This document shows, in pieces, positions 4,296 to 52,735 of a DNA stretch of 64,000 bases. Position numbers and translations under genes: made by a program. A model generated the notes under the pieces. That model made no database searches. It saw nothing but the letters and a program-made list of their open reading frames with translations, and was not told where the DNA came from. This DNA comes from a virus, in the IMG/VR virus record IMGVR_UViG_3300050821_005171, positions 14,701 to 78,700 of that record. The stretch is one strand, 5' to 3'. Positions within the stretch are counted from its first letter, which is position 1, and each line of letters opens with the position of its first letter.

Positions 4296-4968
4296 TGGCC
4301 TCTCGTTTTTGGCGGGTCAAATTGCCCAGTATCTGCTCTGCCCTTTGCCTCAATCTTCGATGCTGCTTGCGTGGAATGGTCGCCGGCTTGTTGACCTCTG
4401 ACTCGCTGGCGATCAGCGATCGATACTGAAAGAGCGTCAGCTTTCCAATGTCGGCCAAGCTGCACTGCCCCATGTCGCAGGCAATTTTGAATCCCCGCTT
4501 CCAGTTTGGCATCTCGTTCTGATTGACGGAATTTCTACTGACCTTTGACGCCCACTCAACATCGCTCATCGAATCAAACGCGCTGATCTGGTTGCGGACC
4601 GCCACGAACTCGAAAGCATCATCGTTAGACCACCCGCCAATCAGGTTGGCACACTCAAGCCAACTCTTTGATCCCCGCAATGAGAGCCACAGGCTCATTA
4701 GGATGCCGGGCTCCGTCGACAGCCAGCCCAGAATGTCCGTAAGGTCGATAGACGTCGCCTCGGCGATGGCTGCGATGCGATACTTGCGGTCCTTTTCGTC
4801 TCCCGTTTTAACGGCGGCCATCGCATCAATAAAAGCAGCGCTACGGCCCTGCAATAGATAGTTCTCGATCGCCCCCAGGTCTCCAATCGTAATTGGATGC
4901 AAGAGCACCATGTCCTGCCCCAGCAGAAATGGCACTCCGGCACCGACGGCGCGAGCGAGAGAAAACAC
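4267..4968 (-). CDS. Tail assembly chaperone-like protein (long form)
   Basis: Probable GTG start at 4968 overlapping the tail tube stop; LHPITIGDLG..IE and C-terminal IGKLTLFQY motifs. Confidence 0.55.
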   Translation of the reverse strand: MFSLARAVGAGVPFLLGQDMVLLHPITIGDLGAIENYLLQGRSAAFIDAMAAVKTGDEKDRKYRIAAIAEATSIDLTDILGWLSTEPGILMSLWLSLRGSKSWLECANLIGGWSNDDAFEFVAVRNQISAFDSMSDVEWASKVSRNSVNQNEMPNWKRGFKIACDMGQCSLADIGKLTLFQYRSLIASESEVNKPATIPRKQHRRLRQRAEQILGNLTRQKREANAAKPTARS

Positions 4969-5417
4969 TATGGCTGCTCCGTGCCTCCAGACACGCAACC
5001 CTCGGCCAGCGTTCCGTCAGGGTAGGTCCACTGACCGTGCGTCACCGCCGTCACGCGCACGCTGATCTCGGTAGCCTGATTGATTTCGACCGTCTCGCCG
5101 ATGGTCTTGATGCGGGCCGGTACGATCCAGTGTCGGACGTTGTTCTCGTACAGCAACAGCGTCACCAGCTCGCCAACTTCGATGATGTCGTAGATCGAAT
5201 CGAAGATGTTGAGGATGACGTCGAACGAAACGTCTCCACGGCACTTGCCCAGCGCGGTGAGATTGAAGCCGTTGCTCCCTGAGTGGCAAAACTCGGGAAC
5301 CGTGGCCTCCATGTTGAACTCCCAGCGCCCGACATCAGCCACGTCGCTGGGGTCGATATGGATGAATCCGCACTGGCCGCTGATGTTGCCGTGTTCTACC
5401 GGGGGAGGATTGGACAT
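4968..5417 (-). CDS. Putative tail tube (major tail) protein
   Basis: 149 aa beta-rich (ISGQCG...WEFNM...C-terminal VTHGQW); upstream of chaperones and tape measure. Confidence 0.6.
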   Translation of the reverse strand: MSNPPPVEHGNISGQCGFIHIDPSDVADVGRWEFNMEATVPEFCHSGSNGFNLTALGKCRGDVSFDVILNIFDSIYDIIEVGELVTLLLYENNVRHWIVPARIKTIGETVEINQATEISVRVTAVTHGQWTYPDGTLAEGCVSGGTEQP

Positions 5418-11615: not shown

Positions 11616-11951
11616 GTGCCGGAATGGATCAGCGGACCTTGGGGAAAGTTTCTCGCATTCATCGCCACGTCGATCGTTTCCGGCGCTGTGGCAGCCGGAA
11701 CCACGGCGGTTCATTTCTACTACGAGACGAAACAGCAAATCGCGGTTCTCAAAGAGCAGATGACTGAAGTGCAGAACCGATTAGAGCTGAGAGTCGCCGC
11801 CAACGAGCGCAAGAGCCTGAAACACGAAGTTCAGATCGCATCGGTTGTCAGGAAGCAGGACCAGATATTCGGCAAAGAAGCCCCGGTGGGCGACGCGATG
11901 CCTCAATTTTCTCCGGTCTCGCCGCCAGCTCCCAGTAAAGGACCGCAATGA
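11616..11951 (+). CDS. TM + coiled-coil protein
   Basis: GTG start after GGAGGA; one TM then coiled coil. Confidence 0.6.
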   Translation: MPEWISGPWGKFLAFIATSIVSGAVAAGTTAVHFYYETKQQIAVLKEQMTEVQNRLELRVAANERKSLKHEVQIASVVRKQDQIFGKEAPVGDAMPQFSPVSPPAPSKGPQ

Positions 11952-12373
11952 ACACTGACGACACGACCAAGGCCGCCAACAAAATCGTGGCCTGGATTGG
12001 CGCGAACAAGACCCACGTCTTCGCCGTCGCCGGGGCAGCCCTAGCCGGGGCAGGCTACTTCCTCAAGATTCTGTCCTGGGAGCAGGCGGTCGCCGTCGCC
12101 ACCGCGTGCGGAGGGTTCTCGTGGTTGCAGAACATCACAAACACCCAAACTAAACAGATCAAAGAGGCAACCGGAGACCAAACCGAGCACCTAAACCTTG
12201 CGGCCGACCTGCGCGCCGATCACATCAACGAAGTGTCAGAAACTGCGGCAGCCGCAGCGGTTACCGCCATCCGACCGGACGTCCACGAGGAAGCGGCCCA
12301 CACAAAGATCAAGCAGGCGGTTGCTAAAAAGGTCACCAAACCGCATGCTCGCAAATATCACGAACATCCGTAA
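11948..12373 (+). CDS. Holin-like 2-TM protein
   Basis: NKTHVFAVAGAALAGAGYF...AVATACGGFSWL with basic C-terminus. Confidence 0.55.
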   Translation: MNTDDTTKAANKIVAWIGANKTHVFAVAGAALAGAGYFLKILSWEQAVAVATACGGFSWLQNITNTQTKQIKEATGDQTEHLNLAADLRADHINEVSETAAAAAVTAIRPDVHEEAAHTKIKQAVAKKVTKPHARKYHEHP

Positions 12374-31923: not shown

Positions 31924-33411
31924 CTACGGGCACTCGCCGCAGGCAACTTTGAGCCGTGTGTCTACATTTTCGACACGCTCGACGACACGGTTAAAAACCT
32001 TGGCTGCTCGTTCTAATGCGGCGTCGAGCAACTCGTCGTTCTGCTCGCTGTCCCGCTTCTCCAACTCGTTATCCAGGGTTTCGAGAACGCCGCGTTCGTC
32101 GTCGTCCTTGTCGCCTGGATAATCCGGCTCTGTGTTTCGCTTCTTCTTGCCGACAGCCGGGCCTTTACCACCCTCTTCCTCTGGCTCCAGGTCGCCTTCC
32201 AGCGACTCTCCGTCTAGAGGTTTGGGGCTGCCAGCAAACCCTTTGGCCATTGCTTTGTGCATCATGGCCATGTGTTTGTGGTACTGGGCCTGCATGTTGG
32301 CCATCGCTGTTTTGTGGGCCTTCTCCAAATCACCGAACAAATGCTCGGGATTGTCGAAGCCGCCACCAGCCACATCGTGTCGAACCTGCCCGGCCGGAGC
32401 GTTGGGAACTTCTCCCGGACGCCGCGTGTCGTGCGGGTTCTGCCTCGGCACATCCCGGGACGGGTCCACGTCCTTGTTGGTGTGCGTGGCATACAGCGAA
32501 CGGTATCCAGAAGCCCCAGGAGGGATGTCGCGGTCGGGGTCAACGTCCTTGTTGATTCCGCCGGGAGCAGGCTTCTTGGGCTTCTTAAGGCCAGGATTGT
32601 CGGAGGTCTCTGGCTTGGCAGCAGGAGAAGCCCCAGGCGACAGATAATGCGGCATCTTGCCGTCCGGCCCCGGCTTCGTGTTTGCAGTTCCTGTCGGGGC
32701 ATCCTCAGGGTGCTCGTCGGTGCCAACCGGGAGCTTATCGGCCCCAGGCTTGGCCCCCACGGGCATGTCTTCACCTTCCGCGCCGAGTTGCGGTGCGTTT
32801 CCTCCGGCACTGTGCGCATCGATCACATGGTCGGCAATTCCAGCCAGTGCCTCTTGGACTTCGGGCGGGAGATTCTGGAACCAGTTCGCATTGGACACCG
32901 GAGACGGGCCTGTGGCCGGGGCACCATCCCCATCGGTGCCAGGATCACTTGTCAGCCCTGAGCCTTGCTCGGCGACCGAAGGAATGTCACCGACTTCGAG
33001 TCCAGCCGCATCCGCAAGCGCAGTAACGTGTTGCAGTGCGTCTTCCGGTAGGTCGTCGATCATGTCCATCAGCGACATGACGTGAGCTTCGGGGGTCATC
33101 TCTGGGGACTGGGCGAGCGTTCCGGCCACGGGAGAATGACCCTGGGGCGGCTTGCCGCGAGGGATGTTCGCCTGGGGGACCGCCTTGTTGCGGTAGACCA
33201 TCCGCTTGGACAGTGCGTCGAGGCTCTTACGAAGCTCTTGGCGGGCTGCCGAGCCCTCTTCGGTGTCTCGCTTCACGAGCACGAAGCGGGCCTCTGGGAC
33301 GGCCGGCTTGTCGACGATCGAGATGTCATCGACAGTCACTCCGGACAGGCGGCGACGAAGTTTAACCGGCATTCCTGCCGTGACTCCGGGTGCCATGTTC
33401 GGGTTGGCCAT
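31924..33411 (-). CDS. Scaffold-like protein carrying an N-terminal fragment of the prohead protease fold
   Basis: Starts RRRLSGVTVDDISIVDKPAVPEARFVLVKR; remainder low complexity with NKDVDP.RD.P duplication. Confidence 0.65.
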   Translation of the reverse strand: MANPNMAPGVTAGMPVKLRRRLSGVTVDDISIVDKPAVPEARFVLVKRDTEEGSAARQELRKSLDALSKRMVYRNKAVPQANIPRGKPPQGHSPVAGTLAQSPEMTPEAHVMSLMDMIDDLPEDALQHVTALADAAGLEVGDIPSVAEQGSGLTSDPGTDGDGAPATGPSPVSNANWFQNLPPEVQEALAGIADHVIDAHSAGGNAPQLGAEGEDMPVGAKPGADKLPVGTDEHPEDAPTGTANTKPGPDGKMPHYLSPGASPAAKPETSDNPGLKKPKKPAPGGINKDVDPDRDIPPGASGYRSLYATHTNKDVDPSRDVPRQNPHDTRRPGEVPNAPAGQVRHDVAGGGFDNPEHLFGDLEKAHKTAMANMQAQYHKHMAMMHKAMAKGFAGSPKPLDGESLEGDLEPEEEGGKGPAVGKKKRNTEPDYPGDKDDDERGVLETLDNELEKRDSEQNDELLDAALERAAKVFNRVVERVENVDTRLKVACGECP

Positions 33412-34122: not shown

Positions 34123-34998
34123 CTACACAGCAGGACTGGCGAACCCATCTGCTCCGATCGAAAAACCACGGAATTTACCAGCCAGGATGGCTTGCCTGAC
34201 CTCTGGATCATAGACCCTAAACGCAGCGAGCCACGTTCCTTCAGAGATAGGCACGCCGTTCACGACGTAATTTGGCGACCTGACGATATAACTCTCGACG
34301 AGCGGGCAGGATCGCTTGGAGAGCACAACTTTGTGCATGACGCCTGCGCGCTGACAGTCCTCGACGTAGGCGTGTGCGGCCAGTTCGATCTCACCCGCAT
34401 CGATCATGTCACCCTGCTTATCAACACGGTCCGGAACGAGAATCGGGCCGAGAATGTACGTGTAGTCTGGCGTGCTGTCCACCTTAGTGAACTCTGACGT
34501 CATCTCGGCGTGTGCCGCAACCTGTCCCGAGCCAGATGCCGCAAGGGCCGGTGCTGCTTCAGGTGTTTCTGTTGCCACTTCGGTGTCCTCCGATTCTGAA
34601 TCCGGTAGTTCGGCTGGCACCTGTGCCAAGCCAGGGTCGATAGTGATCTGCCCATCAGGCCCCACGCACACCCAGGTAGACCCGGTCCCCCAGTCGTTCG
34701 GCGCCGCCGTGCCGACGCTGATCCTGTCCGGGTGGATGCCGAGCGCCTGGGCGACGCCCTGTTTCCAAGGATAGTCAAACTGAGCAGCATCACGATCCGG
34801 CTTGAGTACCACGCGGGCAATTTGCTGGGCACGATCGTAAAATAACTGTCCCTGGTTGCTCGGTCCGCAGATGACATTGATGCTCGCCAAAAGAGTGCGG
34901 GCTACGTCTTCGGAGTGAGACTTTCGCAGGATCGCTTTGTGGAGCTTGCGACGCACCTTGCGTTTCTGTCGATTGGCTTTGCGAATCTGATCCTGCAT
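34123..34998 (-). CDS. XkdF-like prohead serine protease
   Basis: ILGPILVPDRVDKQGD, EIELAAH, VMH, LVESYI, GTW, GKFRGFSIG. Confidence 0.85.
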   Translation of the reverse strand: MQDQIRKANRQKRKVRRKLHKAILRKSHSEDVARTLLASINVICGPSNQGQLFYDRAQQIARVVLKPDRDAAQFDYPWKQGVAQALGIHPDRISVGTAAPNDWGTGSTWVCVGPDGQITIDPGLAQVPAELPDSESEDTEVATETPEAAPALAASGSGQVAAHAEMTSEFTKVDSTPDYTYILGPILVPDRVDKQGDMIDAGEIELAAHAYVEDCQRAGVMHKVVLSKRSCPLVESYIVRSPNYVVNGVPISEGTWLAAFRVYDPEVRQAILAGKFRGFSIGADGFASPAV

Positions 34999-35001
34999 TG
35001 T

Positions 35002-37629
35002 TTACTCCAGCACCGAGGTCACTGTACACCGACAGTTCACCCGATTCTCAGGTGACAAGCCGGGGTCACCCGGAAATCTAGCTCGCTCACCATTACTGAG
35101 AATGAACAGGCGACCTTCTCCGACTTGGGTGCCGTCCTCGTCGAGCACCACCCAATGGCCACCACGCTGCACGATCATTTGGCCAGCGACTTCTAGGTGC
35201 ATCTCGCGAGTGTTTCTATCTCGGATTGCCACCCACTGACGGCCTTGAACTATGTTGCGAGCGATGAGGTCCTCCTGAACGCTCCACTGCCCTCCCGCAA
35301 GCGCTGCTGTGATTTCCGTTCTCGCAATTCTCTCGGCTCGCACCTCGTTGAATAGGTTCTCCGAGTCCTCTGAGATATAGGTGGCAGTGTCCTCTGGCGT
35401 CCAGCCTTCCTCGATCGCACGCAACAGGATGTCACGCAGTCTCTGTCGCGTCGTGCCTGTTACGTTTGACCGCCAATACTGAGCGTTAAAGTCCTGGGCG
35501 AGCGTGTGCCTAATGCGCTTCACCATAGACGGGGGTATCTCCATAAACCCCTTGATCCGTCGCGATGATTTCGGCTCAGCAACCTCAGCTTTCTCAAATC
35601 TGCTGACGTGTCTCAGTTCAAGCTGAGCGCCAATGATTGCCGCATCGAACATCGGTTCCACAGCGGCGTCGAGCAGCAGCGCCTCTGATCGGCCCGGAGG
35701 TAACAGCACCCAAGCACTGTCAGGATTCACGGCCTTGGTGAGTCTCACGGTGCCGTTATCACCAGCAGGGACTAGCGATTTTGTGATACCGGAGAACGTC
35801 TCATACCGACTAATCACTTCGGACTTCTGCGTCTCCAGCGCTCCCAGTAGTGCCTCAGTGAATGGAGCCACCTGGGACTCGTGGGCGGCCTCCCACTCTC
35901 GCACCAACCGGTCCACCTGCTCTGACTTGAACAGCCGGCTCCGCTTCTTGGGCTCGAACATGGGATGTCTAGGCTTGTTTGGATCGCGAGCGTATCGAGG
36001 TGGAGACTCGACTGGAACTTCTTCTTGATCTCCGCCGTAGCCAAGATCACCCCCCTTCGTCGAGCTAACGTCCCGCTCGCCAAATGCGATCAGGTCGTCT
36101 AGCGACTGGCGCTCAGGACCGAGGCGAACCTTCTCCTGCCGTCCAAACAGTGGCGGCTTGCCGTTGCTGGGCGCGTGGCCGTTTCCATTGGCCGAGCCGT
36201 TCTGGCCATCCTGCCCTGGGGCCTTGCCGCCGAACGTAGTTGGCTTGGATGGCGGGGTATGGTTCTGTGACGCACCATCCGGGCTCGGCTGTCCCTCTCC
36301 CGGTTTGGCAGCAGCCACGATCCCGGGTTGCGGTTCGCCTTCGTCGTTGCCCCACTCGGCCATCTCGGAGCTTTTGGGGACGATCGGGCGCTTGCCACCA
36401 CGGCGGAACGGTTTCTTCTGGAACAGTAACTCGCGAACCTCGTTCTGATCGAGGGCTGCCCCTTTGATGCCCAGGTCGACCGCTTTGTGGATCAGTTCGA
36501 TGTCGCTTGGGACCACTGGAGAGAAGTATGCGAAGCAGTCGCCCGCAGGTTCAAATTCGCGCACAAGGCTGCGGGTAATGTGGGCTGCGTTGTGCTTCAG
36601 GCGGGGGTTGATTGTGTTTTCTGCCCATGCCTGAATAGCTGATTCCATATTGCTCCGGTTCGCATCGGCCACAAGGCCCACGACAGCTTTTGGCACTCCA
36701 AAAGTTGCTAATGTCATGGTTAACGTCGTATCGAGTGAGGCGCGAAAATCCATTTCTTTCACGCTTGACTGTTGCATCATCGGCTTCAAACCAGAGTGTG
36801 TAATCATCGGCCGCCCGCTATGTTCGACGAGCGTGTGCTGATTGATGATCTGGTTGTAAACCTGCTTCACCTGTGGCTCTGTCAGTGTCTTATCAGTGCT
36901 GAAAATCTGCCCAGGTGGTGCATAGTTCTGGAACTGATTCCGCAGCCGATCGTAGATCGTCATCTCGATGTCGGTCGTGTTGCCGCAGTGCCACAACGTC
37001 GGCGAGCCGTAGAACCTGCCGTTGCCGTACCAATCCAGGTTCGGCTCCATGAACTCGACGATCTCACTGGCAGGCAGGATTACCGGACGCTCAGTGTGCC
37101 ACAGATTCCTGATCTCGTATGCCTCGACATACTGCGTTCGGCTGGGAATCACCCGCACGAACTGCGAGGGCATTGGCCACACTTCTTTGGTGGTGCCGAA
37201 CAAATTACGGCCCTTCCACCAATAGGCGTTGCCCGTGAGCATCTTCCAGCCCTCGGTGTAGAACCACAGGTCCCACTCCGTGAACCTGGGATTCACGTTG
37301 AAGAAGAGCTGGCACAGTGGGTGATTGGAGGGCAATGGCTCGACGACCGTACCCGACTTCTTCGGGATGCGGCGGAGCATCTTGATCTCTTGCATCGCCA
37401 TCTTGCGGGCAATGGCCCCGGAGGCGATGAACACCGAGTTGCGGTTGGCTCGCAGGAATGCGTTGCGGTCGATCAGCCACTCGGCGCGGGTGTGCCGGTG
37501 GACAGGGCCGACCATGATCTCGGCGAAGTCGGCTGTGGATTTTTCCACGCGGACAGGGCGAGCGTTCCGGCCGCTGAGGGTTTCGGCGCGGCTGAATGCA
37601 TGATCTAGTGTGGCGCTAAGCGTCGTCAT
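35002..37629 (-). CDS. Portal protein fused to MuF (SPP1 gp7-like) minor head domain
   Basis: HPL..LF..VNP, LTGNAYW, FGVPKAVVG and ENTINP (portal); RAERIARTE and NCRC (MuF). Confidence 0.9.
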   Translation of the reverse strand: MTTLSATLDHAFSRAETLSGRNARPVRVEKSTADFAEIMVGPVHRHTRAEWLIDRNAFLRANRNSVFIASGAIARKMAMQEIKMLRRIPKKSGTVVEPLPSNHPLCQLFFNVNPRFTEWDLWFYTEGWKMLTGNAYWWKGRNLFGTTKEVWPMPSQFVRVIPSRTQYVEAYEIRNLWHTERPVILPASEIVEFMEPNLDWYGNGRFYGSPTLWHCGNTTDIEMTIYDRLRNQFQNYAPPGQIFSTDKTLTEPQVKQVYNQIINQHTLVEHSGRPMITHSGLKPMMQQSSVKEMDFRASLDTTLTMTLATFGVPKAVVGLVADANRSNMESAIQAWAENTINPRLKHNAAHITRSLVREFEPAGDCFAYFSPVVPSDIELIHKAVDLGIKGAALDQNEVRELLFQKKPFRRGGKRPIVPKSSEMAEWGNDEGEPQPGIVAAAKPGEGQPSPDGASQNHTPPSKPTTFGGKAPGQDGQNGSANGNGHAPSNGKPPLFGRQEKVRLGPERQSLDDLIAFGERDVSSTKGGDLGYGGDQEEVPVESPPRYARDPNKPRHPMFEPKKRSRLFKSEQVDRLVREWEAAHESQVAPFTEALLGALETQKSEVISRYETFSGITKSLVPAGDNGTVRLTKAVNPDSAWVLLPPGRSEALLLDAAVEPMFDAAIIGAQLELRHVSRFEKAEVAEPKSSRRIKGFMEIPPSMVKRIRHTLAQDFNAQYWRSNVTGTTRQRLRDILLRAIEEGWTPEDTATYISEDSENLFNEVRAERIARTEITAALAGGQWSVQEDLIARNIVQGRQWVAIRDRNTREMHLEVAGQMIVQRGGHWVVLDEDGTQVGEGRLFILSNGERARFPGDPGLSPENRVNCRCTVTSVLE

Positions 37630-42057: not shown

Positions 42058-42384
42058 ATGGCCACCGATCAATCCGACCCACTCGGAGAAGTTGCCTACA
42101 CGGCAGAGATGCTCGTCCCAGACTCTGATCAGCCGTGCGACTGTGACGTCCCAGGGCAGGCCCCGTGTATGCCACCGCCTCCGGAAGAGTCGCACGTCTA
42201 CCGCCGTCCGACTGGAATGCGACTGAGGGAGCTTGTGGCCCTGTTGCATTCCCACTTCGACAATGAGCAAGGCGAGATCGATAGCGACCGGATCGTTCAA
42301 GTCTTTGCCGTAGAGCGCGGCATGAATCCGCTCCGGAGACTGGAGATTATGGACGGCGTTCTGATTCTGTCGCCGGATTGCTGA
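42058..42384 (+). CDS. Hypothetical protein
   Basis: Probable ATG 42058. Confidence 0.45.
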   Translation: MATDQSDPLGEVAYTAEMLVPDSDQPCDCDVPGQAPCMPPPPEESHVYRRPTGMRLRELVALLHSHFDNEQGEIDSDRIVQVFAVERGMNPLRRLEIMDGVLILSPDC

Positions 42385-42407
42385 GCGCGCAGGCCGACTG
42401 CACACTC

Positions 42408-43539
42408 CTACCTGGGAATCACTTTATTGATGTCGTCCGAAGTCGGAGCTTTGCTCATGATGGCGGACATCAACTCCCAGGCCACGCTCCGCTCTATGCA
42501 GGCATGCTTCAGATCGCCGCTCTTGTCATGCTTAGTGGCGTTGGACACGGCCTGGGCGAACTTTTTCACCAGCTTCACGAGCGCTTCATCATCCATGACG
42601 ATTGGATCGGCCTTGCGTGCTCTCGTCACAGCTCTTTCTCCCGACGTTTATCGGCAAGCAGCATCTCGATCCTGCGCCTGCGGCCGATGATGAGCCCCAG
42701 GGCCAGCAGTCCGTATTCCTTGTCGGTGGCCCCGTCTGGGGTCCAGCCTTCCGTGTTGAAAATCTCTGTGTCACGCACGAAATCCTCAAGCTCTGCCCTG
42801 AGCCGCGCGTTCTCGGTGGCGAGTTCATGTTCAATGGTCATGGCTGAACCGCCTTCGGCAGTTGATGATCTGCGAGAATTTTTCCGTGGCTGATGATGCG
42901 GTCGATCATCCAGTCGTAGCCGTGGAAGCCCTCTGACTTTTCCATGAGCGCTCGCGCCTCATCGGCATCAACAGATTTAACGCTGACGCGTGCGTACCAA
43001 CCGTCACCGAAGTCGTAGTCATAGCTCGGTTTCTCCAGGATGCGGTCAGCGTCTCCCGGGGCCAAGGTTCGCACTTCCGCCCACAAGCGACCACCTCCGG
43101 ACCACTTGCCGTCCCAGGCGTTATTTCCAGGCATCGTCAGGATGAATGCGATTTTCGTGCTCATTTGCTATTCCAGCTCCCTCAGCGCAAAGGCCCGTGG
43201 CGGCTTGGCCAGGGCCAGCTTCTCAACACTCTTGTCGGTCAAATGGTACTTATTTTTGTTTCGCTCTTTGCCCTTGATCGACATCCGTTTCAGGCCCCCA
43301 TCCCGCACCAAGTTCTGAAGCCGACAGTACCAGTGGGAGCAGTTTTCGTTGCCCCGCGTGGTCGGCTCCATGCTCGGGGCGATCTTCAGGATGGTGTCCC
43401 TGATCTTGTGCCACGTCATCCACTTGTCGGAGTTTTCGGGCTGCATCATGGCTGTTAGGATCAGCCAGCGCATTGAGCCCCCTAACTTCTCTGGCCAGTT
43501 GGTTGAGTGGCGGATTCGTTTTGAGCGGGACACTTCCAT
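42408..43539 (-). other. Four small CDSs (42408-42629, 42626-42841, 42838-43164, 43168-43539; the last is winged-helix-like)
   Basis: Tightly packed run (GTGA/ATGA overlaps) downstream of promoter 43563-43591. Confidence 0.65.
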
Positions 43540-43562
43540 TGCGTTTCTCCCTGACGTGACGT

Positions 43563-43591
43563 AAAGTAGCACATTGTAAGCACGCTGGCAA
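43563..43591 (-). promoter_or_regulatory. Promoter with 13-bp motif
   Basis: TTGCCA-17-TACTTT, spacer GTGCTTACAATGT. Confidence 0.65.
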
Positions 43592-43900
43592 GTGACGTGG
43601 AGCAGTGATGCGACAGCCGATGCTTCCATTCGCGGAGATTAAACGTGACGCCGAGATCGAGGCTCAGCAGTCTAGGCGACATACCATCCACGCCCTGCTA
43701 TTGGTTTGCTCGTTCGTTGCGTTTTTGTTCGTGATGTTTCATGTCGAAGTTCCGATTTATTGCAACTATTGCCATCAGAAAGTGGGTGGCCGTTGCGTAG
43801 CCGCGTGGCTGGTTACTCGGGCTGAATGCCGCTCCGACAACACCTGCCACTGGAAATGCTTCTGGGACCGAAACCCGCCCCCACCCGATCCGAGACCACA

Positions 43901-44581: not shown

Positions 44582-45765
44582 GTATCGAGAATAAGATCGA
44601 CGACTTGAATTACGAACGGTCGTGCGAAGAGGCTTACGAGAAGCTGGAATCCATCGCGCGCCGCGCAGTGAAGTTGTTGCGTGACTTCGGCGACGGTGAC
44701 GCCGACAACCTTGGAGAAAATCTTCACAACATGAAATCCTGGGCCAGAGAGGTAGACCGCTTCTTGGAAGGTGATGATATTTAATGAGCGACCCACAAAA
44801 GCAGATTGAGTTTGAAATCCCTCCACCGGGCTCGATCAGCAGCGCCGATCTGCACAGCCTGATCGAACAGAAGCTGGAGAGCACGGCTCCGGCAGGCAAG
44901 AAGGACCTAGTGTCGATGCACATCGAAACCCAAGCCAAGTTCGTTTGCAAGGTGATCTATGCCGAACGAAAATGACGACGATCCTCGCTGGGAAGAGTCC
45001 GATTTAGACCTCAGCAGCTTGACCGAACAGCAACCGATCACGCTGAGCGACGAGCCGATCGGCGACGCTCACTGTCCGCACTGCTTGTCACGACAGGAGA
45101 AACTGCCGGGGCTGTGGCTCGAAGATCAGTCGACGGCGTTCGGGTACGTGTGCGAGAATTGTGGGAAGATCATGCGCGTCGAAGTTTTTTTCACGCCTAC
45201 ATTTCGCATATCAAAGAACGAGTAAATGGGCCGCCGCCCAGTTGACACAGAATCGCATCGCAAGATCACATGCCCAAGCTGCTGCCGAGAGCATTGGGTC
45301 GTAAAAGACATCAAGCAAACTCGCGCGAACATGCTCTGCGAGCGATGCTCTCCGCCCAAGTGCTGCCCCAAGTGCGGCCAACGCTTCAAGAAGGCCCATC
45401 AATGCAAACGGGCCGATCGCGATGTGCTCTATGCCGAGACGCACCTCCGGCCACTTAGCCCGCTCAAAAGCATCGGGCCAAAGGACGTTCACCGATTCTG
45501 CTCGATCGAATGCAATTTCGACTCGAATCACCTGCACGTGGGCGACATCACGAACAAAAGGGCTATAGTCGCACACTGCAATAGACGGATGATGGCAACC
45601 AGAGTCGTGAAGTATGTCCCGCTGTCAGTCTGGGGTGTCCTGGAAGCTGGCGACAAGCTGGGGCGAACCTACCACGGACGTTGGTGTCGAAGGTGCTATG
45701 CACTCGTGCTGAGACTGCTTGGCGACCAGACTGATTTCCGGGTTTCGATCCACGAAAAGCCTTGA
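44578..45765 (+). other. Four small CDSs (44578-44784, 44784-44975, 44959-45225, 45226-45765), two with multiple CxxC
   Basis: Coupled ORFs; zinc-ribbon motifs. Confidence 0.6.
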
Positions 45766-46952: not shown

Positions 46953-46993
46953 AAAAGAAAAGGGGCCGGTGCCAACCACGCAGCACCGGCCCC
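46953..46993 (-). terminator. Intrinsic terminator
   Basis: Minus strand GGGGCCGGTGC...GCACCGGCCCC-TTTTCTTTT. Confidence 0.8.
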
Positions 46994-46996
46994 GAA

Positions 46997-47064
46997 TCCC
47001 AAAACCACTTGCATCAAGGCCCTAGTCTACTCCCAAAACCACTTGCATCAAGGCCCTAGTCTAC
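46997..47064. repeat. Perfect 34-bp tandem duplication
   Basis: TCCCAAAACCACTTGCATCAAGGCCCTAGTCTAC at 46997-47030 and 47031-47064. Confidence 0.95.
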
Positions 47065-47580
47065 CTGGGCATACAATTCGCAATCAAGCTCGATCCCCTC
47101 GAATGCGCGTCGCACGGTCTGTTGCGTGCCGGGCGGCAAGATTGGCAGGAGCCGTCTGAGACAGTCTGCCAGCACGATCGCCATTCCGGCCGCAATCTTG
47201 ACCGGATCGTTGTTCTCATTGTGCATCGACGCGATGCCGCCCCGCTCAAACAGCATCGAGGACCGCAGCATCTGATGCTGAATCTCTTCGTTGATCGAGC
47301 AGCCTTCGGGGTGGCCCTCGACATCGTACAGCAGCAGTGCCGTGGCGGCTGTGGATTCACGGGTCGCTTCGATCACGGCCCGACTGATTCTGTTGAATTC
47401 AACCGGCTTATCTTTTGGTCCTGGAAGCATGGTGGCGTCAGCTCCACTTTGGTTGCAATGTGGGCACTGCCAATAGGTGCTGACATGAACACGACCATCC
47501 GGCATCTCTTGCCGCGAAGCGCGCACTGCGATCAGGCAGCCGCAGCCTTCGCACAGCTTTGTTCGCTCCGGATGGTCCAT
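47056..47580 (-). CDS. Zinc-ribbon protein, probably leaderless
   Basis: CEGCG and CPHC; ATG 7 nt after the -10 box. Confidence 0.65.
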   Translation of the reverse strand: MDHPERTKLCEGCGCLIAVRASRQEMPDGRVHVSTYWQCPHCNQSGADATMLPGPKDKPVEFNRISRAVIEATRESTAATALLLYDVEGHPEGCSINEEIQHQMLRSSMLFERGGIASMHNENNDPVKIAAGMAIVLADCLRRLLPILPPGTQQTVRRAFEGIELDCELYAQVD

Positions 47581-47586
47581 GCTTCA

Positions 47587-47614
47587 ATGGTAGCACGTTG
47601 TCAGCACTGGTCAA
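47587..47614 (-). promoter_or_regulatory. Promoter with 13-bp motif
   Basis: TTGACC-16-TACCAT, spacer GTGCTGACAACGT. Confidence 0.7.
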
Positions 47615-48273
47615 GAGTTTGGCAGGGTATGGTAACCGGACTGCTCAGCAAGTTCGCCTTGGCTCATAGCCGGCATTCCAACGAATAGCTCGCGAATCTT
47701 GTATGCTTCGGAGTCGGGCACTGGAGTCAACTCGAACCTCCGAACGATCGTGTTTCCTTCTCGCCTGTCCGGTGCCTGACAAGTGGCCCTGAGCGAAATT
47801 CTGACTGGCCGACGCTCTGCTATGTCGAGCGGGTCGATCACATCCTGGATGCCGTGGTCAATCTGCGGCACAGAGAGTCCGGTTAGCTCGCGGTGTTCTT
47901 TGTTGTGCGAGATCGCCAGAACTCCGGCCGTGGCCCAAGAGCCCTTGTGGGCCAGCAGTGGGCGACACATCGGGCCAACGTCTCGCCAGTGGGCCTCCAT
48001 CGATCGCCGAAAACCGGGCAGCGTGCGATCGAGCGTGTCGGTCATGTCCGTAACGAAAACCATCGGGACCGCTTCGGATTTTCCGATGTTGTCGATTCTG
48101 ACGTAACAAATCTCGAACTGGTCGTCGTACAGCAGCGGACTTAGCGCGATCGCTGGGCTCGGACTACGAGTCAGCAACAGGCGCAACCCTCGCGTCATGG
48201 CGATCAGGATGGCGAAGAATGCCAAGAGGATCACGAGCATGCCAGAGAAGTGAATCAGGTCCATAAAGCACAT
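47611..48273 (-). CDS. Membrane-anchored beta-sandwich protein
   Basis: N-terminal TM; VRIDNIGKSEA; own promoter TTGACG-17-TACGAT at 48289-48317. Confidence 0.6.
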   Translation of the reverse strand: MCFMDLIHFSGMLVILLAFFAILIAMTRGLRLLLTRSPSPAIALSPLLYDDQFEICYVRIDNIGKSEAVPMVFVTDMTDTLDRTLPGFRRSMEAHWRDVGPMCRPLLAHKGSWATAGVLAISHNKEHRELTGLSVPQIDHGIQDVIDPLDIAERRPVRISLRATCQAPDRREGNTIVRRFELTPVPDSEAYKIRELFVGMPAMSQGELAEQSGYHTLPNS

Positions 48274-48317
48274 TTCCTTTGTGCTGACATCGTAACCACG
48301 CCATCAGCCGGCGTCAA

Positions 48318-48599
48318 CTACGGAGTATCGAAAAACGCACGCTTCACTGGACGCTGGGCCTTGGCCTTCTTGGCTTTCTTCTTCTTCGGTTTAGACGCCT
48401 TGGGTTGACCTGGAAAACCGACCAGTGGGCCTGTACTTGAAAGCATTTCTGGGACTCCGTTTGGATATTGTGGCTGGCCAAAATCTGAAGCTGTTCCGAA
48501 TAGCTGGCTGTAGGTCACTCGCGCGCCCAAGCTCGTGACCGCAAGTGCGTATCCAGGCAGTAACGGATTGCTCACGTAGCGTGGCTTACGGCTCATCAA
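48318..48599 (-). CDS. Hypothetical protein ending RAFFDTP
   Basis: Lys-rich linker plus shared C-terminal motif. Confidence 0.65.
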   Translation of the reverse strand: MMSRKPRYVSNPLLPGYALAVTSLGARVTYSQLFGTASDFGQPQYPNGVPEMLSSTGPLVGFPGQPKASKPKKKKAKKAKAQRPVKRAFFDTP

Positions 48600-48981
48600 A
48601 GAATGCCCTGTGTTTCTTGGGCTTGGGCTTCTTGTCGGCCAGTTCTCTCGGCATGGACGACACGGTTGAGGCTGGCTTCCAATTCGATCCTGGGCTAGTG
48701 CGCTGCACGGTCAGGTAGACGCTAAGAAGATCGCCTGATCGAATCGACATTTCGACGTTCATTCGAGACAGCATGAAGTCGCCGACCTTGTCGCCTCCCT
48801 GCTGGATGCTAACCGTGCGTCCAAACGCAGAATTAAGTTCGTGGGCACCGGCGGCCGTGCATTTTCCTTCAAGATCAATGGTTTGATCTGGATTCGTCGC
48901 TCCGCCCCTAAAAGTGACGCTGTCAATCTCCACCCAGATGCCGTCGATCGTTATCAATTGGCTCGGATGCGGCTGGCTCAC
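48586..48981 (-). CDS. Hypothetical protein ending RAFFDEP
   Basis: Beta-rich domain plus shared C-terminal motif. Confidence 0.7.
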   Translation of the reverse strand: MSQPHPSQLITIDGIWVEIDSVTFRGGATNPDQTIDLEGKCTAAGAHELNSAFGRTVSIQQGGDKVGDFMLSRMNVEMSIRSGDLLSVYLTVQRTSPGSNWKPASTVSSMPRELADKKPKPKKHRAFFDEP

Positions 48982-49337
48982 GACTCAACTCTCAGCGTCA
49001 GGTCAGGGAAGCCCTGGATGCTCAGGGTGACCATGTCGGCGGTCACAGACACCTTCTCCACTTCGCGCGTGATTAAATGCAAGATCGTGAGCATGGGGCG
49101 GCTGCCGTTGAATGCCAGCACGATCTGATCTCCGTTCATCTGAACGCTCATATCGAGCTGGCCCTGGCACTGGAGCGAGGCATACTTCATGTCCACGCCA
49201 CCCGGACTGAACAGGGCCTCCAGGAACTTGGTGGCCTTCCGGATCGTGTCCTGTATCTGGCTAAGCGGCGGGAGCCCCGGCAGTTGCATATTTTGGCTTG
49301 CGAGGACTGACCTTAGTGCGTCGTTTTCGTCGGACAT
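48978..49337 (-). CDS. Hypothetical protein
   Basis: 119 aa; overlaps sigma factor 3' end. Confidence 0.6.
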   Translation of the reverse strand: MSDENDALRSVLASQNMQLPGLPPLSQIQDTIRKATKFLEALFSPGGVDMKYASLQCQGQLDMSVQMNGDQIVLAFNGSRPMLTILHLITREVEKVSVTADMVTLSIQGFPDLTLRVES

Positions 49338-50106
49338 TTTTGGGCTTCTTTCTGGGTGGCGGCTTGTGGGTCTGGAACGGCTTGCAATCGTATCTTTTGG
49401 GGAGCCCGGCCATCACCCGCAATTCGTTCAGGGCATTCCGCTCAAGCTGCCTGACGCGCTCTCGCGAGATTCTGTACTTGATGCCAATCTCTTTGAGTGT
49501 CTGCCCGCTGGCCCTGGCCGTCAGCACGGATCGGAGCCTCGCATTGAGCCGGTCCATCATGCCGTTCAATCGCTCGATCGCATCGTGCAAGTGGGCCGAT
49601 TTTTCGACTGAACTGCCATCGTGCAGGAAGTCCCCCAGCTCATCGAGATCGTGCTCGGAAATCGTTGGCAGTGGCTCGTCATCGATCCAGCCCTTGCGGA
49701 GCCTAGCGTCTGGGATATGGATCGTGGACTGAGTTTGATCGACCTCGCGCTGCACCGATTGTCTAATCCACCATGAGGCATATGTGCTGAGTCTAAGTCC
49801 TCGGTCCAACTCGAACTTTTCAATGGACCGCAGGAATCCCATGCAGCCGGCCTGATAAAGATCGTCATCTGCAACTCCGGGTCGGCCGTACTTGCGCACG
49901 TAGGACCAGATCAGCGCCTTCCACTGCTCAAGTAGCAATCCGAACGCGATACCCTGAACTCGTTTGGCCTGCTTTTTCTTATAATTGGCCCTAAGCCCAG
50001 CCTGGAATTTTCTGATCAGGAACCGCTCTAGCTCAACTATCGCACTCTTCGCTTTGGGCCTTGCGGTCCATCGCTTCTGCTTTTTGGGAGGCTTCTTATT
50101 GGGCAT
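49261..50106 (-). CDS. Sigma-70 family RNA polymerase sigma factor
   Basis: Region 2 DLYQAGCMGFLRSIEKFELDRGLRLSTYASWWIRQ; region 4 TLKEIG...SRERVRQLE..AL. Confidence 0.92.
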   Translation of the reverse strand: MPNKKPPKKQKRWTARPKAKSAIVELERFLIRKFQAGLRANYKKKQAKRVQGIAFGLLLEQWKALIWSYVRKYGRPGVADDDLYQAGCMGFLRSIEKFELDRGLRLSTYASWWIRQSVQREVDQTQSTIHIPDARLRKGWIDDEPLPTISEHDLDELGDFLHDGSSVEKSAHLHDAIERLNGMMDRLNARLRSVLTARASGQTLKEIGIKYRISRERVRQLERNALNELRVMAGLPKRYDCKPFQTHKPPPRKKPKNVRRKRRTKVSPRKPKYATAGAPAA

Positions 50107-50344
50107 TCGTCGATTGTACCGCTGGTGGGCATTTTGGGATTATCTCAAAGTCGACCTGATATCCCTCGTAGCCCCACTTTATAAGCTGCGTCAGTTTGCC
50201 GGTGGTCCTAGTGGTCACGAATAGCACGATTCGCTTGCCGTGACCATCTTCAATTGGATGGGCTGCCGTGAACCAATTGCACCGGCTCATATCGGCGGTC
50301 AGTGCGATCGTTGCCTCTTGGATTGTGAGGCCGCGACACTTCAT
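50096..50344 (-). CDS. Hypothetical protein
   Basis: 82 aa, coupled. Confidence 0.55.
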   Translation of the reverse strand: MKCRGLTIQEATIALTADMSRCNWFTAAHPIEDGHGKRIVLFVTTRTTGKLTQLIKWGYEGYQVDFEIIPKCPPAVQSTNAQ

Positions 50345-50712
50345 GGCGTCTCAAAGAACGCCCGCTTGGCCGGGGCCTCTGGGTTGTGTGTGACACGCTC
50401 TCGCGGCACCGGATCAGGCAGGCTCTCGTTGAGGTTCCGGCCGGATAACTCTTGGATCATCTCAGTGCTCACGTAGAACACAAACTTGACGACCCACTCG
50501 TGGCCGCTCAGGGGCCAATACTCTGCCGTTTTCACGGTAAGACGCAGGTGCTTATGGCCTGGATTCGGGATTGTGAGGACCGACACTTTCCCCTGGCGGA
50601 ACAAAACCTCTTCGGTCCAGAGATCGTGCGTGCGGCCAACCACGACAAAGCTGTGCCCTACTACGTCGCAGGCTGTGACATCGAACTCCATTCGGCCGAT
50701 CTTGGCTTTCAT
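50341..50712 (-). CDS. Hypothetical protein ending RAFFETP
   Basis: Beta-rich domain plus shared C-terminal motif. Confidence 0.7.
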   Translation of the reverse strand: MKAKIGRMEFDVTACDVVGHSFVVVGRTHDLWTEEVLFRQGKVSVLTIPNPGHKHLRLTVKTAEYWPLSGHEWVVKFVFYVSTEMIQELSGRNLNESLPDPVPRERVTHNPEAPAKRAFFETP

Positions 50713-51353
50713 GGCTCGTCGAAAAACGCGCGTCGCGCGGGCTTGGGAACCGTCTTGGTTGGCTTCGGTATCTGCACGGCTTTTGGCTTACTCTTTTCCG
50801 GCCTGCTGAACATGCTGGCAAACTCGGCAGGCAGCGGGTAGCCGCCATAGTTAGTCGTGGGAGGTGGCGGCTGTGCCGGGGCCTCAGCCGGAACCAGCAA
50901 TCCTGAATCAATGCAGGCGTCGATGTGTTCGTTGCTGTCGAGCCTCACTGATTCTTTGTCGTATCCGTCGTAGAGCCTGTAGTGCTTGGTGCCGAGCGTG
51001 CTCACGACGCGAACCGTATCGTTCTTGCGGAGCAACAGCGGATAGCCGGATATATCTTTTGGCGGCCTGGGACTGGCCATGCTAGGCGGAAATCCGAAGT
51101 TGTAAAGCGATTTCGATTCAGCGGTCGCCATATCCAATCCCATGAATACATCGCTCGGAACACTTAACGATCTGAGAATCTGCTCCCGCGTCACTTTAGC
51201 AAACTCGCCAAACGCAGCTTCGGCCGAAGAGATGCCGCGCATTATTTGGTCGTAGTCTTTGTCCAATTCAACCTCAAAAGAAACAGAACCGGCCCCACGG
51301 TCCGGCAGCTTAGTCCGGTTGTTCGGCTGCTCGGAATCGCGGGATTGGGTCAT
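50709..51353 (-). CDS. Hypothetical protein ending RAFFDEP
   Basis: Pro/Lys-rich linker plus shared C-terminal motif. Confidence 0.7.
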   Translation of the reverse strand: MTQSRDSEQPNNRTKLPDRGAGSVSFEVELDKDYDQIMRGISSAEAAFGEFAKVTREQILRSLSVPSDVFMGLDMATAESKSLYNFGFPPSMASPRPPKDISGYPLLLRKNDTVRVVSTLGTKHYRLYDGYDKESVRLDSNEHIDACIDSGLLVPAEAPAQPPPPTTNYGGYPLPAEFASMFSRPEKSKPKAVQIPKPTKTVPKPARRAFFDEP

Positions 51354-51745: not shown

Positions 51746-51841
51746 AAAAGCACGCAGTCCATACTCCGATCACTCAGCCGAGGCTAGATGGATCGTGAAC
51801 CGCTATGCGTCTGCGATTGTATTCACAACGCCAGCACAAGA

Positions 51842-52735
51842 TCAAGCCGGTTTTTGGTTCCTGACGAACTCGTCGAGATATTTTGTACCGTAGTGCTCAA
51901 TCTCGAAGAAATTCGCACATTCAGGTGACGGTTTGTAGATGCGGAAGGTTCGCATCACTCCAAGCGTGGCCCCGCTTTCCAGTGGTCCGATGAACGAGCA
52001 ATCTGGCCTCTCGCCTCGCTTCAGGGCCTGCATGTCGGCCTTGAAGTAGTCCGTGTCGGCCCAGGTTTGCATTTGCTCCCGAGTGAGGAAGAAACAGCCG
52101 GCGTGAGGGTTCAGACATCGCTCGAACGTGGCCGGAGGGAATCCGTCCCATCCAACCATCTTCGGAGAATGCGAGACATCCTGAAATGCCCGCGTCTGCT
52201 CAAACGAGAGGGCACCATCTATGTAGAGCTTTCCTACCGATCCGTGGCCCGACTCATATCGCCTCGGCTGCAAGATCGCTCCCGGAACATCAGACTCGCC
52301 GTCGAACCATCGGAGCTTCTCAAAGAACCAGGGGTCCCTGATAATCAGGTCGTCTTCCATCATGCAGTAGTAGTCGTAGTTGCCAAGTCGCGACAGCAAT
52401 TCTCGCTGACACACGAACCCCAGGCACATCGGATCGAGCTTTCCGCCGACCATGCAATGTTCGTGCGGAAACTCAAGCACGCTGCCTCTCAAATGATTCG
52501 CTCCGTGCGTGCATATCACCACATCGATCTCATGGACGTGCGGAGCGTTCGCCTGCTCTCCAATACCAGCGTTACCGCACAGGTACTGCTGTGGGCCGAA
52601 GTTCTGCCGCAGTGCGTTCAGGCACGCCGCGAGGGCCTTTACGCGAGGCTCTGGATCGGGTCCGGTTGAGCCGCTGCCGGCACCTTCAACGGCGCTTGGT
52701 TTCCAAAAGTGCGGGATGGCGATCAGGATTTTCAT
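51842..52735 (-). CDS. GT-A-fold glycosyltransferase-like protein
   Basis: MKILIAIPHF, YDYYCMMEDDL, NPHAGCFFLT..Q, FEIEHYG. Confidence 0.55.
   Translation of the reverse strand: MKILIAIPHFWKPSAVEGAGSGSTGPDPEPRVKALAACLNALRQNFGPQQYLCGNAGIGEQANAPHVHEIDVVICTHGANHLRGSVLEFPHEHCMVGGKLDPMCLGFVCQRELLSRLGNYDYYCMMEDDLIIRDPWFFEKLRWFDGESDVPGAILQPRRYESGHGSVGKLYIDGALSFEQTRAFQDVSHSPKMVGWDGFPPATFERCLNPHAGCFFLTREQMQTWADTDYFKADMQALKRGERPDCSFIGPLESGATLGVMRTFRIYKPSPECANFFEIEHYGTKYLDEFVRNQKPA

What the first reader, a model, noticed from the sequence alone, without database searches (positions are those of the whole stretch)
48318..51353. Four dissimilar proteins share a C-terminal RAFF(D/E)xP-stop tag conserved at protein level
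Seen: ORFs 50709-51353 (...KPARRAFFDEP*), 50341-50712 (...APAKRAFFETP*), 48586-48981 (...KPKKHRAFFDEP*) and 48318-48599 (...RPVKRAFFDTP*) end in the same 7-mer after a basic/Pro-rich linker. The codons differ (Arg CGC/CGG/AGG/CGT; Phe-Phe TTT-TTC or TTC-TTT; Pro CCA/CCG; stops TGA/TGA/TAA/TAG). So it is not a DNA repeat, and selection appears to act on the peptide. The upstream domains show little or no similarity. The genes form two pairs flanking the phage sigma factor. Inference: a portable terminal signal, such as a docking motif for one phage or host partner (like the SSB C-tail or clamp-binding motifs), a packaging/compartment tag or a degron. I know of no described function for it; this is the best candidate for an undescribed system here.
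Basis: partly seen in the sequence, partly recalled or inferred. Interest (0 to 1): 0.85.

Follow-up and report, generated by a model that had tools for sequence, protein, structure and literature searches.

The report
Shared C-terminal tag near phage sigma
Four small proteins encoded around the sigma-factor gene of an uncultured soil phage all end in the same seven residues (RAFF-D/E-x-P), kept by selection on the peptide; it looks like an address tag read by one partner that is still unknown.

Summary
Four minus-strand genes (214, 123, 131 and 93 aa) end in RAFF[DE]xP-stop after a Pro- and mostly Lys/Arg-rich linker. These are the only four AFF[DE] matches in all six frames of the 78.7-kb virus record. 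Synonymous positions are scrambled, so the peptide is conserved and the DNA is not.

New evidence: the only homologue found for any carrier is a 117-aa soil protein, 41% identical to the 131-aa carrier. It ends in RAFWDEP, although its linker has diverged.

"Dissimilar" needs qualifying. The bodies show no sequence similarity. However, the models of the 123- and 131-aa proteins both match the same tail-tube/Hcp-type beta-barrel domain. Profile comparison also hints that linker plus tail may be one inherited 3' module.

No reader was identified. The phage shows no clamp, AAA+, TPR or PDZ family. The one complex prediction (tail against the phage sigma) gave no answer. A resemblance to the RNA polymerase beta flap-tip helix is weak and fades against planctomycete RpoB.

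Best reading (about 0.45): a C-terminal docking tag read by one common partner. Rivals are a degron, a termination-pausing nascent peptide, and a paralogue assembly peg.

This scan has reported other shared C-terminal tags in other phages. This is a small new variant of that kind.

The parts
50709..51353 (-). Carrier 1, 214 aa. Tail RAFFDEP at 50712-50732. Its stop TGA overlaps the ATG of the next gene.
   Evidence: No Pfam or PHROG family. Orphan among 5.8e9 proteins. The Atlas model is poor, pLDDT 0.45.
50341..50712 (-). Carrier 2, 123 aa. Tail RAFFETP at 50344-50364. Modelled as a beta-barrel body (residues 1-80) with a helix, then a low-confidence tail with no secondary structure.
   Evidence: orphan; AF2 pLDDT 70; best match Mu baseplate hub 9ki1_0: Z 8.7, rmsd 2.3, 77 aligned; PilZ and Hcp/VgrG folds follow.
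50096..50344 (-). Untagged 82-aa gene between carrier 2 and sigma.
   Evidence: No family found.
49261..50106 (-). Phage sigma-70-family factor, 281 aa, with very basic N- and C-terminal extensions (net charge +32).
   Evidence: Pfam Sigma70_r2 5.5e-15 and Sigma70_r4 6e-11. phrog_351 2.5e-35. Net charge.
48978..49337 (-). Untagged 119-aa gene between sigma and carrier 3.
   Evidence: no informative match.
48586..48981 (-). Carrier 3, 131 aa. Tail RAFFDEP at 48589-48609. Modelled as a beta-sandwich plus helix (residues 8-94), then a low-confidence linker. It is the only carrier with a homologue elsewhere.
   Evidence: P0005, 41% identity, ends RAFWDEP; AF2 pLDDT 65; nearly all top matches are tail-tube/Hcp/baseplate-hub fold; best Z 8.7, ~90 aligned.
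48318..48599 (-). Carrier 4, 93 aa. Tail RAFFDTP at 48321-48341. Very Lys-rich C-terminal half, net charge +13.
   Evidence: No family found.
47056..48273 (-). Two downstream genes of the same transcription block: a 220-aa protein with an N-terminal membrane segment and a 174-aa protein with CxxC...CxxC.
   Evidence: Kyte-Doolittle maximum 2.67 at residue 6. Weak Zn-ribbon hit, E 0.061.
46962..46993 (-). Strong terminator-like hairpin (13 pairs, 10 G-C, T-run) that probably ends the block.
51816..51845 (-). Promoter-like TTGATC-18-TACAAT upstream of the block. This is a consensus match only.

Best explanation
RAF[FW][DE]xP-COOH is a short linear docking or address peptide. It sits at the end of a flexible, Pro-rich and mostly basic tether. 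It brings four different proteins of the sigma-factor operon to one and the same binding site on a common partner, from the phage or the host.

Shown: the peptide is exactly C-terminal in all five known cases. It is under purifying selection as a peptide. In the two proteins modelled, it lies on a low-confidence segment without secondary structure, following a folded body.

Inferred: that a protein partner reads it, and that the partner belongs to the transcription or early take-over machinery. The second inference rests only on the position of the genes around the phage sigma gene.
For: - Four of four copies are at the extreme C-terminus, with none elsewhere in six frames of 78.7 kb.
- Synonymous sites are randomised, and stop codons and the free position vary, so nothing at the DNA level is kept.
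- The register to the next start codon differs between copies (ATGA overlap twice, 14-nt overlap once, 45-nt gap once). This argues against a coupling element in the RNA.
- The one homologue from another soil sample (41% identity) keeps R-A-F-[W]-D-E-P, while its linker has a 3-residue indel and different residues.
- The bodies have no sequence similarity, and the AF2 models give low-confidence tails without secondary structure behind folded bodies.
- From established knowledge: unrelated proteins sharing a C-terminal peptide that docks on one hub is a known principle. Examples are T4 gp43, gp33 and gp55 on the gp45 clamp, and T7 acidic tails on the polymerase.
Against: - No reader was identified. 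Pfam over 70 other ORFs shows no clamp, AAA+, ClpX, TPR or PDZ family.
- There are only four carriers and one outside homologue, so co-variation between tag and reader cannot be tested.
- Two carriers may share a fold, and linker plus tail may be one inherited module. Part of the sharing may therefore be common descent.
- C-terminal Pro and [DE]-x-P ends are over-used throughout this phage. The last three residues are therefore less specific to the tag than they look.
Confidence: 0.45

Rival explanations
1. C-terminal degron or anti-degron. The tail is read by a host protease or adaptor so that these early proteins are removed on schedule. Alternatively, the Pro cap shields them from proteases that recognise C-termini.
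For: The tail is strictly C-terminal and exposed on a low-confidence, unstructured linker. The genes lie in what looks like a regulatory block with sigma and RusA. The genome-wide excess of C-terminal Pro (16 of 77 genes against 4.8 expected) suggests that protein C-termini are under some general pressure in this host.
Against: From general knowledge, known bacterial C-terminal degrons (ssrA LAA, MuA RRKKAI) end in non-polar or basic residues, not in acid-x-Pro. Seven conserved positions are more than such degrons usually need. No stability data exist.
Confidence: 0.15
2. Cis-acting nascent peptide. With RAFF[DE]xP in the exit tunnel and Pro in the P site, termination is slowed. This tunes coupling to the next gene or mRNA fate, so the ribosome is the reader.
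For: All five copies end in Pro directly before the stop. Arrest peptides are conserved only at the C-terminal peptide level, with unrelated upstream parts. They include R-A-x-P types and Pro-stop types (NSP-stop, NAP-stop) that stall with the stop codon in the A site (PMC10987492). A C-terminal Pro-Pro motif interferes with termination in E. coli (PMC3834316). Three of the four carriers overlap the next start codon.
Against: The carriers have no N-terminal signal or membrane segment, unlike the monitoring substrates (maximum KD(19) <= 1.11). The genes downstream are not sec/yidC. Four stalls in one operon would be costly. Stop codons vary. Pro-ending genes in this phage overlap the next gene no more often than others (7 of 16 against 26 of 59). 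With a fifth of genes ending in Pro, Pro-stop can hardly be a special switch here.
Confidence: 0.12
3. Diverged paralogues or a shared 3' module with a structural role. The carriers descend from one tube-fold (Hcp-like) protein or share one recombined C-terminal module. The tail is a peg that fits into a neighbouring subunit of their own homo- or hetero-oligomer.
For: The models of the 123- and 131-aa proteins both match best to the same domain of the Mu baseplate hub 9ki1_0 (Z 8.7 and 8.5), and both have many tube/Hcp/VgrG matches. hhalign gives 131-aa family against 214-aa protein: 59 columns, 37% identity, E 9.5e-5. The 123- and 131-aa proteins share [MV]PRE 23 residues from the end in ungapped register.
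Against: Z of 8-9 is in the range that models without true relatives also reach (notes). The models have only pLDDT 65-70, built from 1-2 sequences. The 93-aa carrier has almost no room for such a fold. Body identity is nil while the tail is perfect, so the tail still needs its own selective reason.
Confidence: 0.15
4. Specific version of the docking idea. The tail mimics the RNA polymerase beta flap-tip helix and docks on region 4 of a sigma factor (phage or host), or on another protein that binds the flap-tip helix.
For: E. coli RpoB 903-908 RAIFGE, in the flap-tip helix PEEKLLRAIFGEKA, is the best match to RAFFDE along RpoB (BLOSUM score 19). The flap-tip helix binds sigma region 4 (PMC8321222, citing Geszvain 2004). 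The carriers flank a sigma gene.
Against: A score of 19 or more is expected 0.12 times per RpoB by chance, and the flap-tip helix is not the best match for RAFFET or RAFFDT. The positions of L901 and L902 are basic or small in the tails. In four of five Planctomycetota RpoB sequences read here the helix is LLHAIFGR, and in the fifth LLRAIFGR, which is much less like the tail.
Confidence: 0.05
5. Chance, or a DNA- or RNA-level element such as a module boundary, terminator or ribosome site.
For: A small G-C hairpin plus T-run overlaps the tail codons of the 214-aa gene (50727-50739).
Against: That hairpin is present in only one of the four copies. Third codon positions are scrambled. Spacing to the next start differs between copies. 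The motif is unique in six frames.
Confidence: 0.01

Closest known systems
T4 late-transcription and replication proteins that share a C-terminal clamp-binding tail (gp43, gp33, gp55 on gp45)
   Same: Unrelated phage proteins carry one short C-terminal peptide on a flexible end, and the set is linked to a phage sigma factor. This comparison rests on general knowledge; it was not tested here.
   Different: The motif is different: there is no Q or Leu-rich core, the linker is basic and the end is acid-x-Pro. No clamp gene was recognised in this phage, and the sigma itself lacks the tail.
[quoted passage not shown]
   Same: A conserved C-terminal peptide that starts with R-A and ends in Pro at or next to the stop codon, with unrelated upstream sequence, encoded directly upstream of another gene.
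   Different: There is no localisation signal in the carriers, no sec/yidC gene downstream, four copies in one operon, and an aromatic pair plus acid in place of Gly/Pro.
Acidic C-terminal tails of T7 gp2.5 and gp4 and the bacterial SSB C-tail (DDDIPF)
   Same: An exposed C-terminal peptide used as a docking handle by several proteins.
   Different: Those tails are acid runs that end in an aromatic residue. Here the tether is mostly basic and the last residue is Pro.
Shared C-terminal tags on unrelated phage proteins reported earlier in this scan (e1-173140, e1-4772764, e1-831089, e1-5411303, e1-5772389, e1-5658787, e1-5376568)
   Different: The peptide sequence differs. There are far fewer carriers (4 against 7-32). 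The host-range class differs (a temperate ~79-kb phage with serine recombinases). No related genomes are available to test co-variation.

Membership tests
Sliding-clamp-binding peptides (bacterial QL[SD]LF type; PIP box Qxx[LIVM]xx[FY][FY]) | Gln at the first position and an aliphatic residue four positions before the end of the motif | tested here: not met
   The residues before FF are [RKH]-R-A. The position of the aliphatic residue holds K, H, K or R, and no Gln is in register (sequences).
Sliding-clamp-binding peptides | Aromatic or hydrophobic pair near the C-terminus | tested here: met
   FF in four copies and FW in the homologue.
Sliding-clamp-binding peptides | A clamp available as the hub | tested here: inconclusive
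   No clamp family among the 70 other ORFs scanned or in the ORFs. The host is unknown.
Translation arrest peptides of the monitoring-substrate type (SecM, MifM, VemP, ApdA/P, NSP-stop) | Conserved C-terminal peptide ending in or next to Pro, with variable upstream sequence | tested here: met
   Criteria as given in PMC10987492.
Translation arrest peptides of the monitoring-substrate type | N-terminal secretion signal or membrane segment | tested here: not met
   Maximum Kyte-Doolittle (19-residue window) 0.72-1.11 in the four carriers, against 2.67 in the neighbouring membrane protein.
Translation arrest peptides of the monitoring-substrate type | Encoded upstream of secA, secDF or yidC | tested here: not met
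   The downstream genes are small ORFans, the sigma factor and a membrane ORFan.
Translation arrest peptides of the monitoring-substrate type | Ribosome stalls at the motif | not testable with these tools
   Needs toeprinting or a peptidyl-tRNA assay.
Beta flap-tip helix mimic that binds sigma region 4 | Hydrophobic patch equivalent to L901, L902, I905, F906 (as I recall it from Geszvain 2004, which was not read here) | tested here: not met
   Only the two aromatic positions are kept. The L901/L902 positions hold AR, AK, KH, VK or GG.
Beta flap-tip helix mimic that binds sigma region 4 | Likeness to the host's own flap-tip helix | tested here: inconclusive
   RAIFGE in E. coli, but HAIFGR or RAIFGR in five Planctomycetota genomes. 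The host is not known.
ssrA-like / ClpX C-motif degrons | Non-polar (LAA-type) or basic (RRKKAI-type) extreme C-terminus | tested here: not met
   The ends are DEP, ETP, DTP.
Capsid or encapsulin-type cargo-loading peptides | The same C-terminal peptide on the phage's known capsid-internal proteins (protease, scaffold) | tested here: not met
   The protease at 34123-34998 ends ...GFASPAV and the scaffold-like gene at 31924-33411 ends ...ACGECP. There is no AFF[DE] elsewhere.
Tail-tube / Hcp fold (bodies of the 123- and 131-aa carriers) | Beta-sandwich or barrel with a flanking helix that superposes on tube, Hcp or hub domains | tested here: inconclusive
   Z 8.7 and 8.5-8.7 with ~77-91 residues aligned at rmsd 2.3-3.1, and hit lists that are mostly tube-fold (mixed with PilZ domains for the 123-aa model). 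The Foldseek E-values are only 2e-3 and above, and the models have pLDDT 65-70.

The most novel reading that the evidence does not exclude
The tail is an address label read by one still unknown component of the transcription take-over machinery: the phage sigma, host RNA polymerase or one of its factors. The four carriers would then form a sigma-linked set of tethered factors. This would be a new counterpart of the T4 gp33/gp55-gp45 arrangement, in a phage lineage with no cultured relatives.
Probability: 0.15. Interest if true: 0.75.

Novelty: new variant of a known kind. Interest (0 to 1): 0.42.

Why it matters
Shared C-terminal tags are a compact way for a phage to aim several unrelated proteins at one hub. 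Each new tag points to a hub that the phage exploits.

This tag sits around a phage sigma factor in a lineage made almost entirely of ORFans. Finding its reader would give a first functional handle on that take-over module.

The tag is short enough for peptide pull-downs and reporter fusions. The unusual excess of Pro-ended proteins in the same genome raises a separate question about translation termination or C-terminal proteolysis in the unknown host.

Tried and rejected
- Complex prediction of phage sigma (residues 45-245, 9-row alignment) with the tail of the 131-aa carrier (residues 95-131): score 0.00, verdict "no answer". It is not evidence either way.
Neither the 110,555-bp contig that holds the same proteins nor the context of P0005 could be fetched.
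- Word-index searches: the 214-aa and 123-aa carriers hit only themselves. A search restricted to the last 40 residues of the 131-aa carrier found only itself and missed the 214-aa carrier, which shares RAFFDEP. That search therefore failed its own positive control.
- The representatives search gave four further "hits" in giant repeat proteins (TPR, LapA, PPC, Listeria-Bacteroides repeats). I judged these spurious sums of weak repeat matches.
- DNA pattern for the tail:
  - IMG/VR: 52 hits, about the number I estimate from the pattern's information content and my rough guess of the collection's size. All were single hits, mostly in short frames, and none had a Lys/Pro linker.
  - 401 Planctomycetota genomes: 11 hits against 19 for the reversed control.
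- P0005 and the P131/P0005 alignment found no locus in viral, metagenome or genome collections.
- Looking for relatives of the phage:
  - The portal found nothing in IMG/VR.
  - TerL and the 131-aa carrier found nothing in GenBank phages.
  - A 6-kb DNA query found nothing in GenBank phages.
  - Distant sigma relatives L001-L011 have no shared tails.
  - The nearest planctomycete prophages share only TerL and portal and have no tails.
- Sequencing runs: only the probable source soil metagenome was listed, with no RNA holder. Its contigs show no variants.
- A paper search for the motif strings returned only hits to "giraffe".
- The ESM Atlas gave no usable match for the 214-aa carrier or the untagged 119-aa gene. 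A PDB sequence search with the tail gave nothing.
- The genome search cannot draw relatives for a virus record.
- A slippery-site or frameshift reading of GCGTTTTTC was rejected by inspection: it is not an X XXY YYZ heptamer, and two of the copies read TTCTTT.
Full report
**What is there**

The window is bases 14701-78700 of a single 78.7-kb virus record. The record comes from a soil metagenome.

On the minus strand, a tightly packed block runs from about 51.8 kb down to a strong terminator-like hairpin at 46993-46962. Its genes, in order of transcription:
- 214-aa gene, 50709-51353, tagged
- 123-aa gene, 50341-50712, tagged
- 82-aa gene, 50096-50344
- sigma-70-family factor, 49261-50106 (Pfam region 2 at 5.5e-15, region 4 at 6e-11, phrog_351 at 2.5e-35)
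- 119-aa gene, 48978-49337
- 131-aa gene, 48586-48981, tagged
- 93-aa gene, 48318-48599, tagged
- a membrane protein and a CxxC...CxxC protein

RusA follows after the terminator.

Elsewhere the record has these recognisable genes:
- a portal fused to a Mu-F-like domain
- an S78-type prohead protease
- an HK97-type capsid gene
- TerL
- a DNA methyltransferase
- a CsrA-like gene
- two serine-recombinase-like genes

It is therefore a tailed, probably temperate phage. Almost everything else is ORFan.

The four tagged genes end in ...ARRAFFDEP...AKRAFFETP...KHRAFFDEP and ...VKRAFFDTP. AFF[DE] occurs only these four times in six frames of the whole record, always followed by x-P-stop. These four are the only clique among the C-termini of 915 open frames.

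The four Arg codons are all different. The two Phe codons alternate, and the Pro codons and stop codons differ. By my count, 9 of 30 codon pairs at invariant residues are identical, which is about what I estimate random synonymous use would give.

The position of the next start codon relative to the motif also varies: ATGA overlap twice, a 14-nt overlap once and a 45-nt gap once. A G-C hairpin with a T-run overlaps only one copy. The conserved object is therefore the peptide.

**Is it kept elsewhere?**

The 214-aa, 123-aa and 131-aa carriers are orphans in the word-indexed 5.8-billion protein set. An exhaustive HMMER search of 1.84 billion representatives with the 131-aa carrier found one true homologue, P0005 (117 aa). 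Its source label is a read-assembly identifier from run ERR1700732.

P0005 is 41% identical to the carrier and ends in ...NKRVGGRAFWDEP. Six of seven tail residues are identical and the seventh is F to W. The linker differs and has a 3-residue indel.

It is a single data point. At 41% identity I estimate that 6 of 7 identical residues has a chance of roughly 0.02. No DNA context for P0005 could be obtained.

**Are the carriers unrelated?**

By sequence, yes. By structure, perhaps not.
- The AF2 model of the 131-aa protein (pLDDT 65) is a beta-sandwich with one helix (residues 8-94), followed by a low-confidence tail.
- The model of the 123-aa protein (pLDDT 70) is a beta-barrel (residues 1-80) with a helix and a low-confidence tail without secondary structure.
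- Both models align best or near-best to the same domain of the Mu baseplate hub, 9ki1_0. The 131-aa model gives Z 8.5 over model residues 7-98 and hub residues 23-142; the 123-aa model gives Z 8.7 over 1-81 and 24-138.
- The hit list of the 131-aa model is almost entirely tail-tube, Hcp, VgrG and Dit folds. The list of the 123-aa model mixes these with PilZ barrels.

These Z values lie at the level that unrelated models can also reach, so this is a lead and not a result.

hhalign adds two hints. The last ~60 residues of the 131-aa family align with the end of the 214-aa protein (37% identity, E 9.5e-5, probability 59%). The 123- and 131-aa proteins share [MV]PRE at the same distance from the end. 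Linker plus tail may thus be one old 3' module spread by duplication or recombination. The tail need not have arisen four times.

**Who reads it?**

This is unknown.
- Pfam over 70 further ORFs shows lipase, papain, HNH, GATase, PAS and a tail-completion protein. No clamp, AAA+ unfoldase, TPR or PDZ family was found.
- I followed one recalled lead. [quoted passage not shown]
- That lead proved weak. The score is expected 0.12 times per RpoB by chance and does not hold for the ET and DT variants. Five Planctomycetota RpoB sequences read LLHAIFGR or LLRAIFGR.
- I keep the flap-tip lead at about 5%.

**A rival that deserves a bench test**

Every copy ends in Pro-stop and begins with R-A. This recalls the RAPP-like and NSP-stop/NAP-stop arrest peptides, which stall ribosomes at or next to the stop codon (PMC10987492). 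A C-terminal Pro-Pro motif is known to disturb termination in E. coli (PMC3834316).

Several points speak against it:
- The carriers lack localisation signals.
- Nothing like sec or yidC lies downstream.
- This phage ends 16 of 77 confident genes in Pro (4.8 expected, p 1.7e-5). Seven of the 77 end in [DE]-x-P (0.5 expected).
- That Pro excess shows no link to gene overlap.

The Pro excess is itself unexplained. It also makes the last residues of the tag less special than RAF[FW].

**Distribution**

The motif is not a general feature of phages or of planctomycetes.
- Pattern scans of IMG/VR gave about the number of hits I estimate for chance, and the loci held from the prokaryote scan looked like chance too. 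Neither showed convincing carriers.
- In 401 Planctomycetota genomes the pattern was no more frequent than its reversed control.
- The nearest prophages found there (portal 33-37% identical) share only TerL and portal with this phage.

No host assignment is claimed.

**Verdict**

This is a real, selected, strictly C-terminal peptide on four proteins around a phage sigma gene. It is most simply read as a docking or address tag for one partner (about 0.45). A degron, a termination-pausing peptide and a paralogue assembly peg remain live rivals.

The principle is known from T4 and T7, and this scan has reported other such tags in other phages. This motif, with its basic tether and acid-x-Pro end, is not described in the papers searched.

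Interest is moderate. The tag is clean and testable, but it has few carriers and no related genomes, and no reader was found.

Noticed in passing
whole record; examples 4968-5417(-), 11948-12373(+), 31924-33411(-), 45226-45765(+): C-terminal Pro is strongly over-used. 16 of 77 confident genes end in Pro (4.8 expected, p 1.7e-5); without the tagged genes it is 13 of 73 (p 5e-4). [DE]-x-P-stop occurs 7 times (0.5 expected). There is no link to start/stop overlap.
   Followed up: partly
48649-48681(-), residues 101-111 of the 131-aa carrier: The block WKPxSTVSSMP, between the folded body and the linker, is conserved 10 of 11 in the 41%-identical homologue P0005. That is better than the rest of the protein.
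   Followed up: no
42378-42893(+) and 43168-43629(-): Two further genes have C-termini with partial likeness to the tag...DDLREFFRG and ...KPPRAFALRELE. They were not counted as carriers.
   Followed up: no
49261-50106(-): The phage sigma has very basic, Pro/Lys-rich N- and C-terminal extensions (net charge +32). Its 3' end overlaps the next ORF by 77 nt. The Atlas gene call starts that ORF at its residue 17.
   Followed up: no
48289-48317(-): Promoter-like TTGACG-17-TACGAT starts directly after the stop of the 93-aa carrier, in front of the membrane-protein gene.
   Followed up: no
whole record: Proteins identical to the carriers are recorded on a 110,555-bp Logan/ENA contig, which is longer than this 78.7-kb record. 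The record may therefore be partial, or the phage may be a prophage with host flanks.
   Followed up: no
35002-37629(-): Portal protein fused to a Mu-F-like head-morphogenesis domain in one 875-aa ORF.
   Followed up: no
L002-L007 (IMG/VR loci with distant sigma relatives): Several phage sigma relatives stop shortly after the LRLRFGI stretch, so they seem to lack most of the region 4.2 helix-turn-helix.
   Followed up: no
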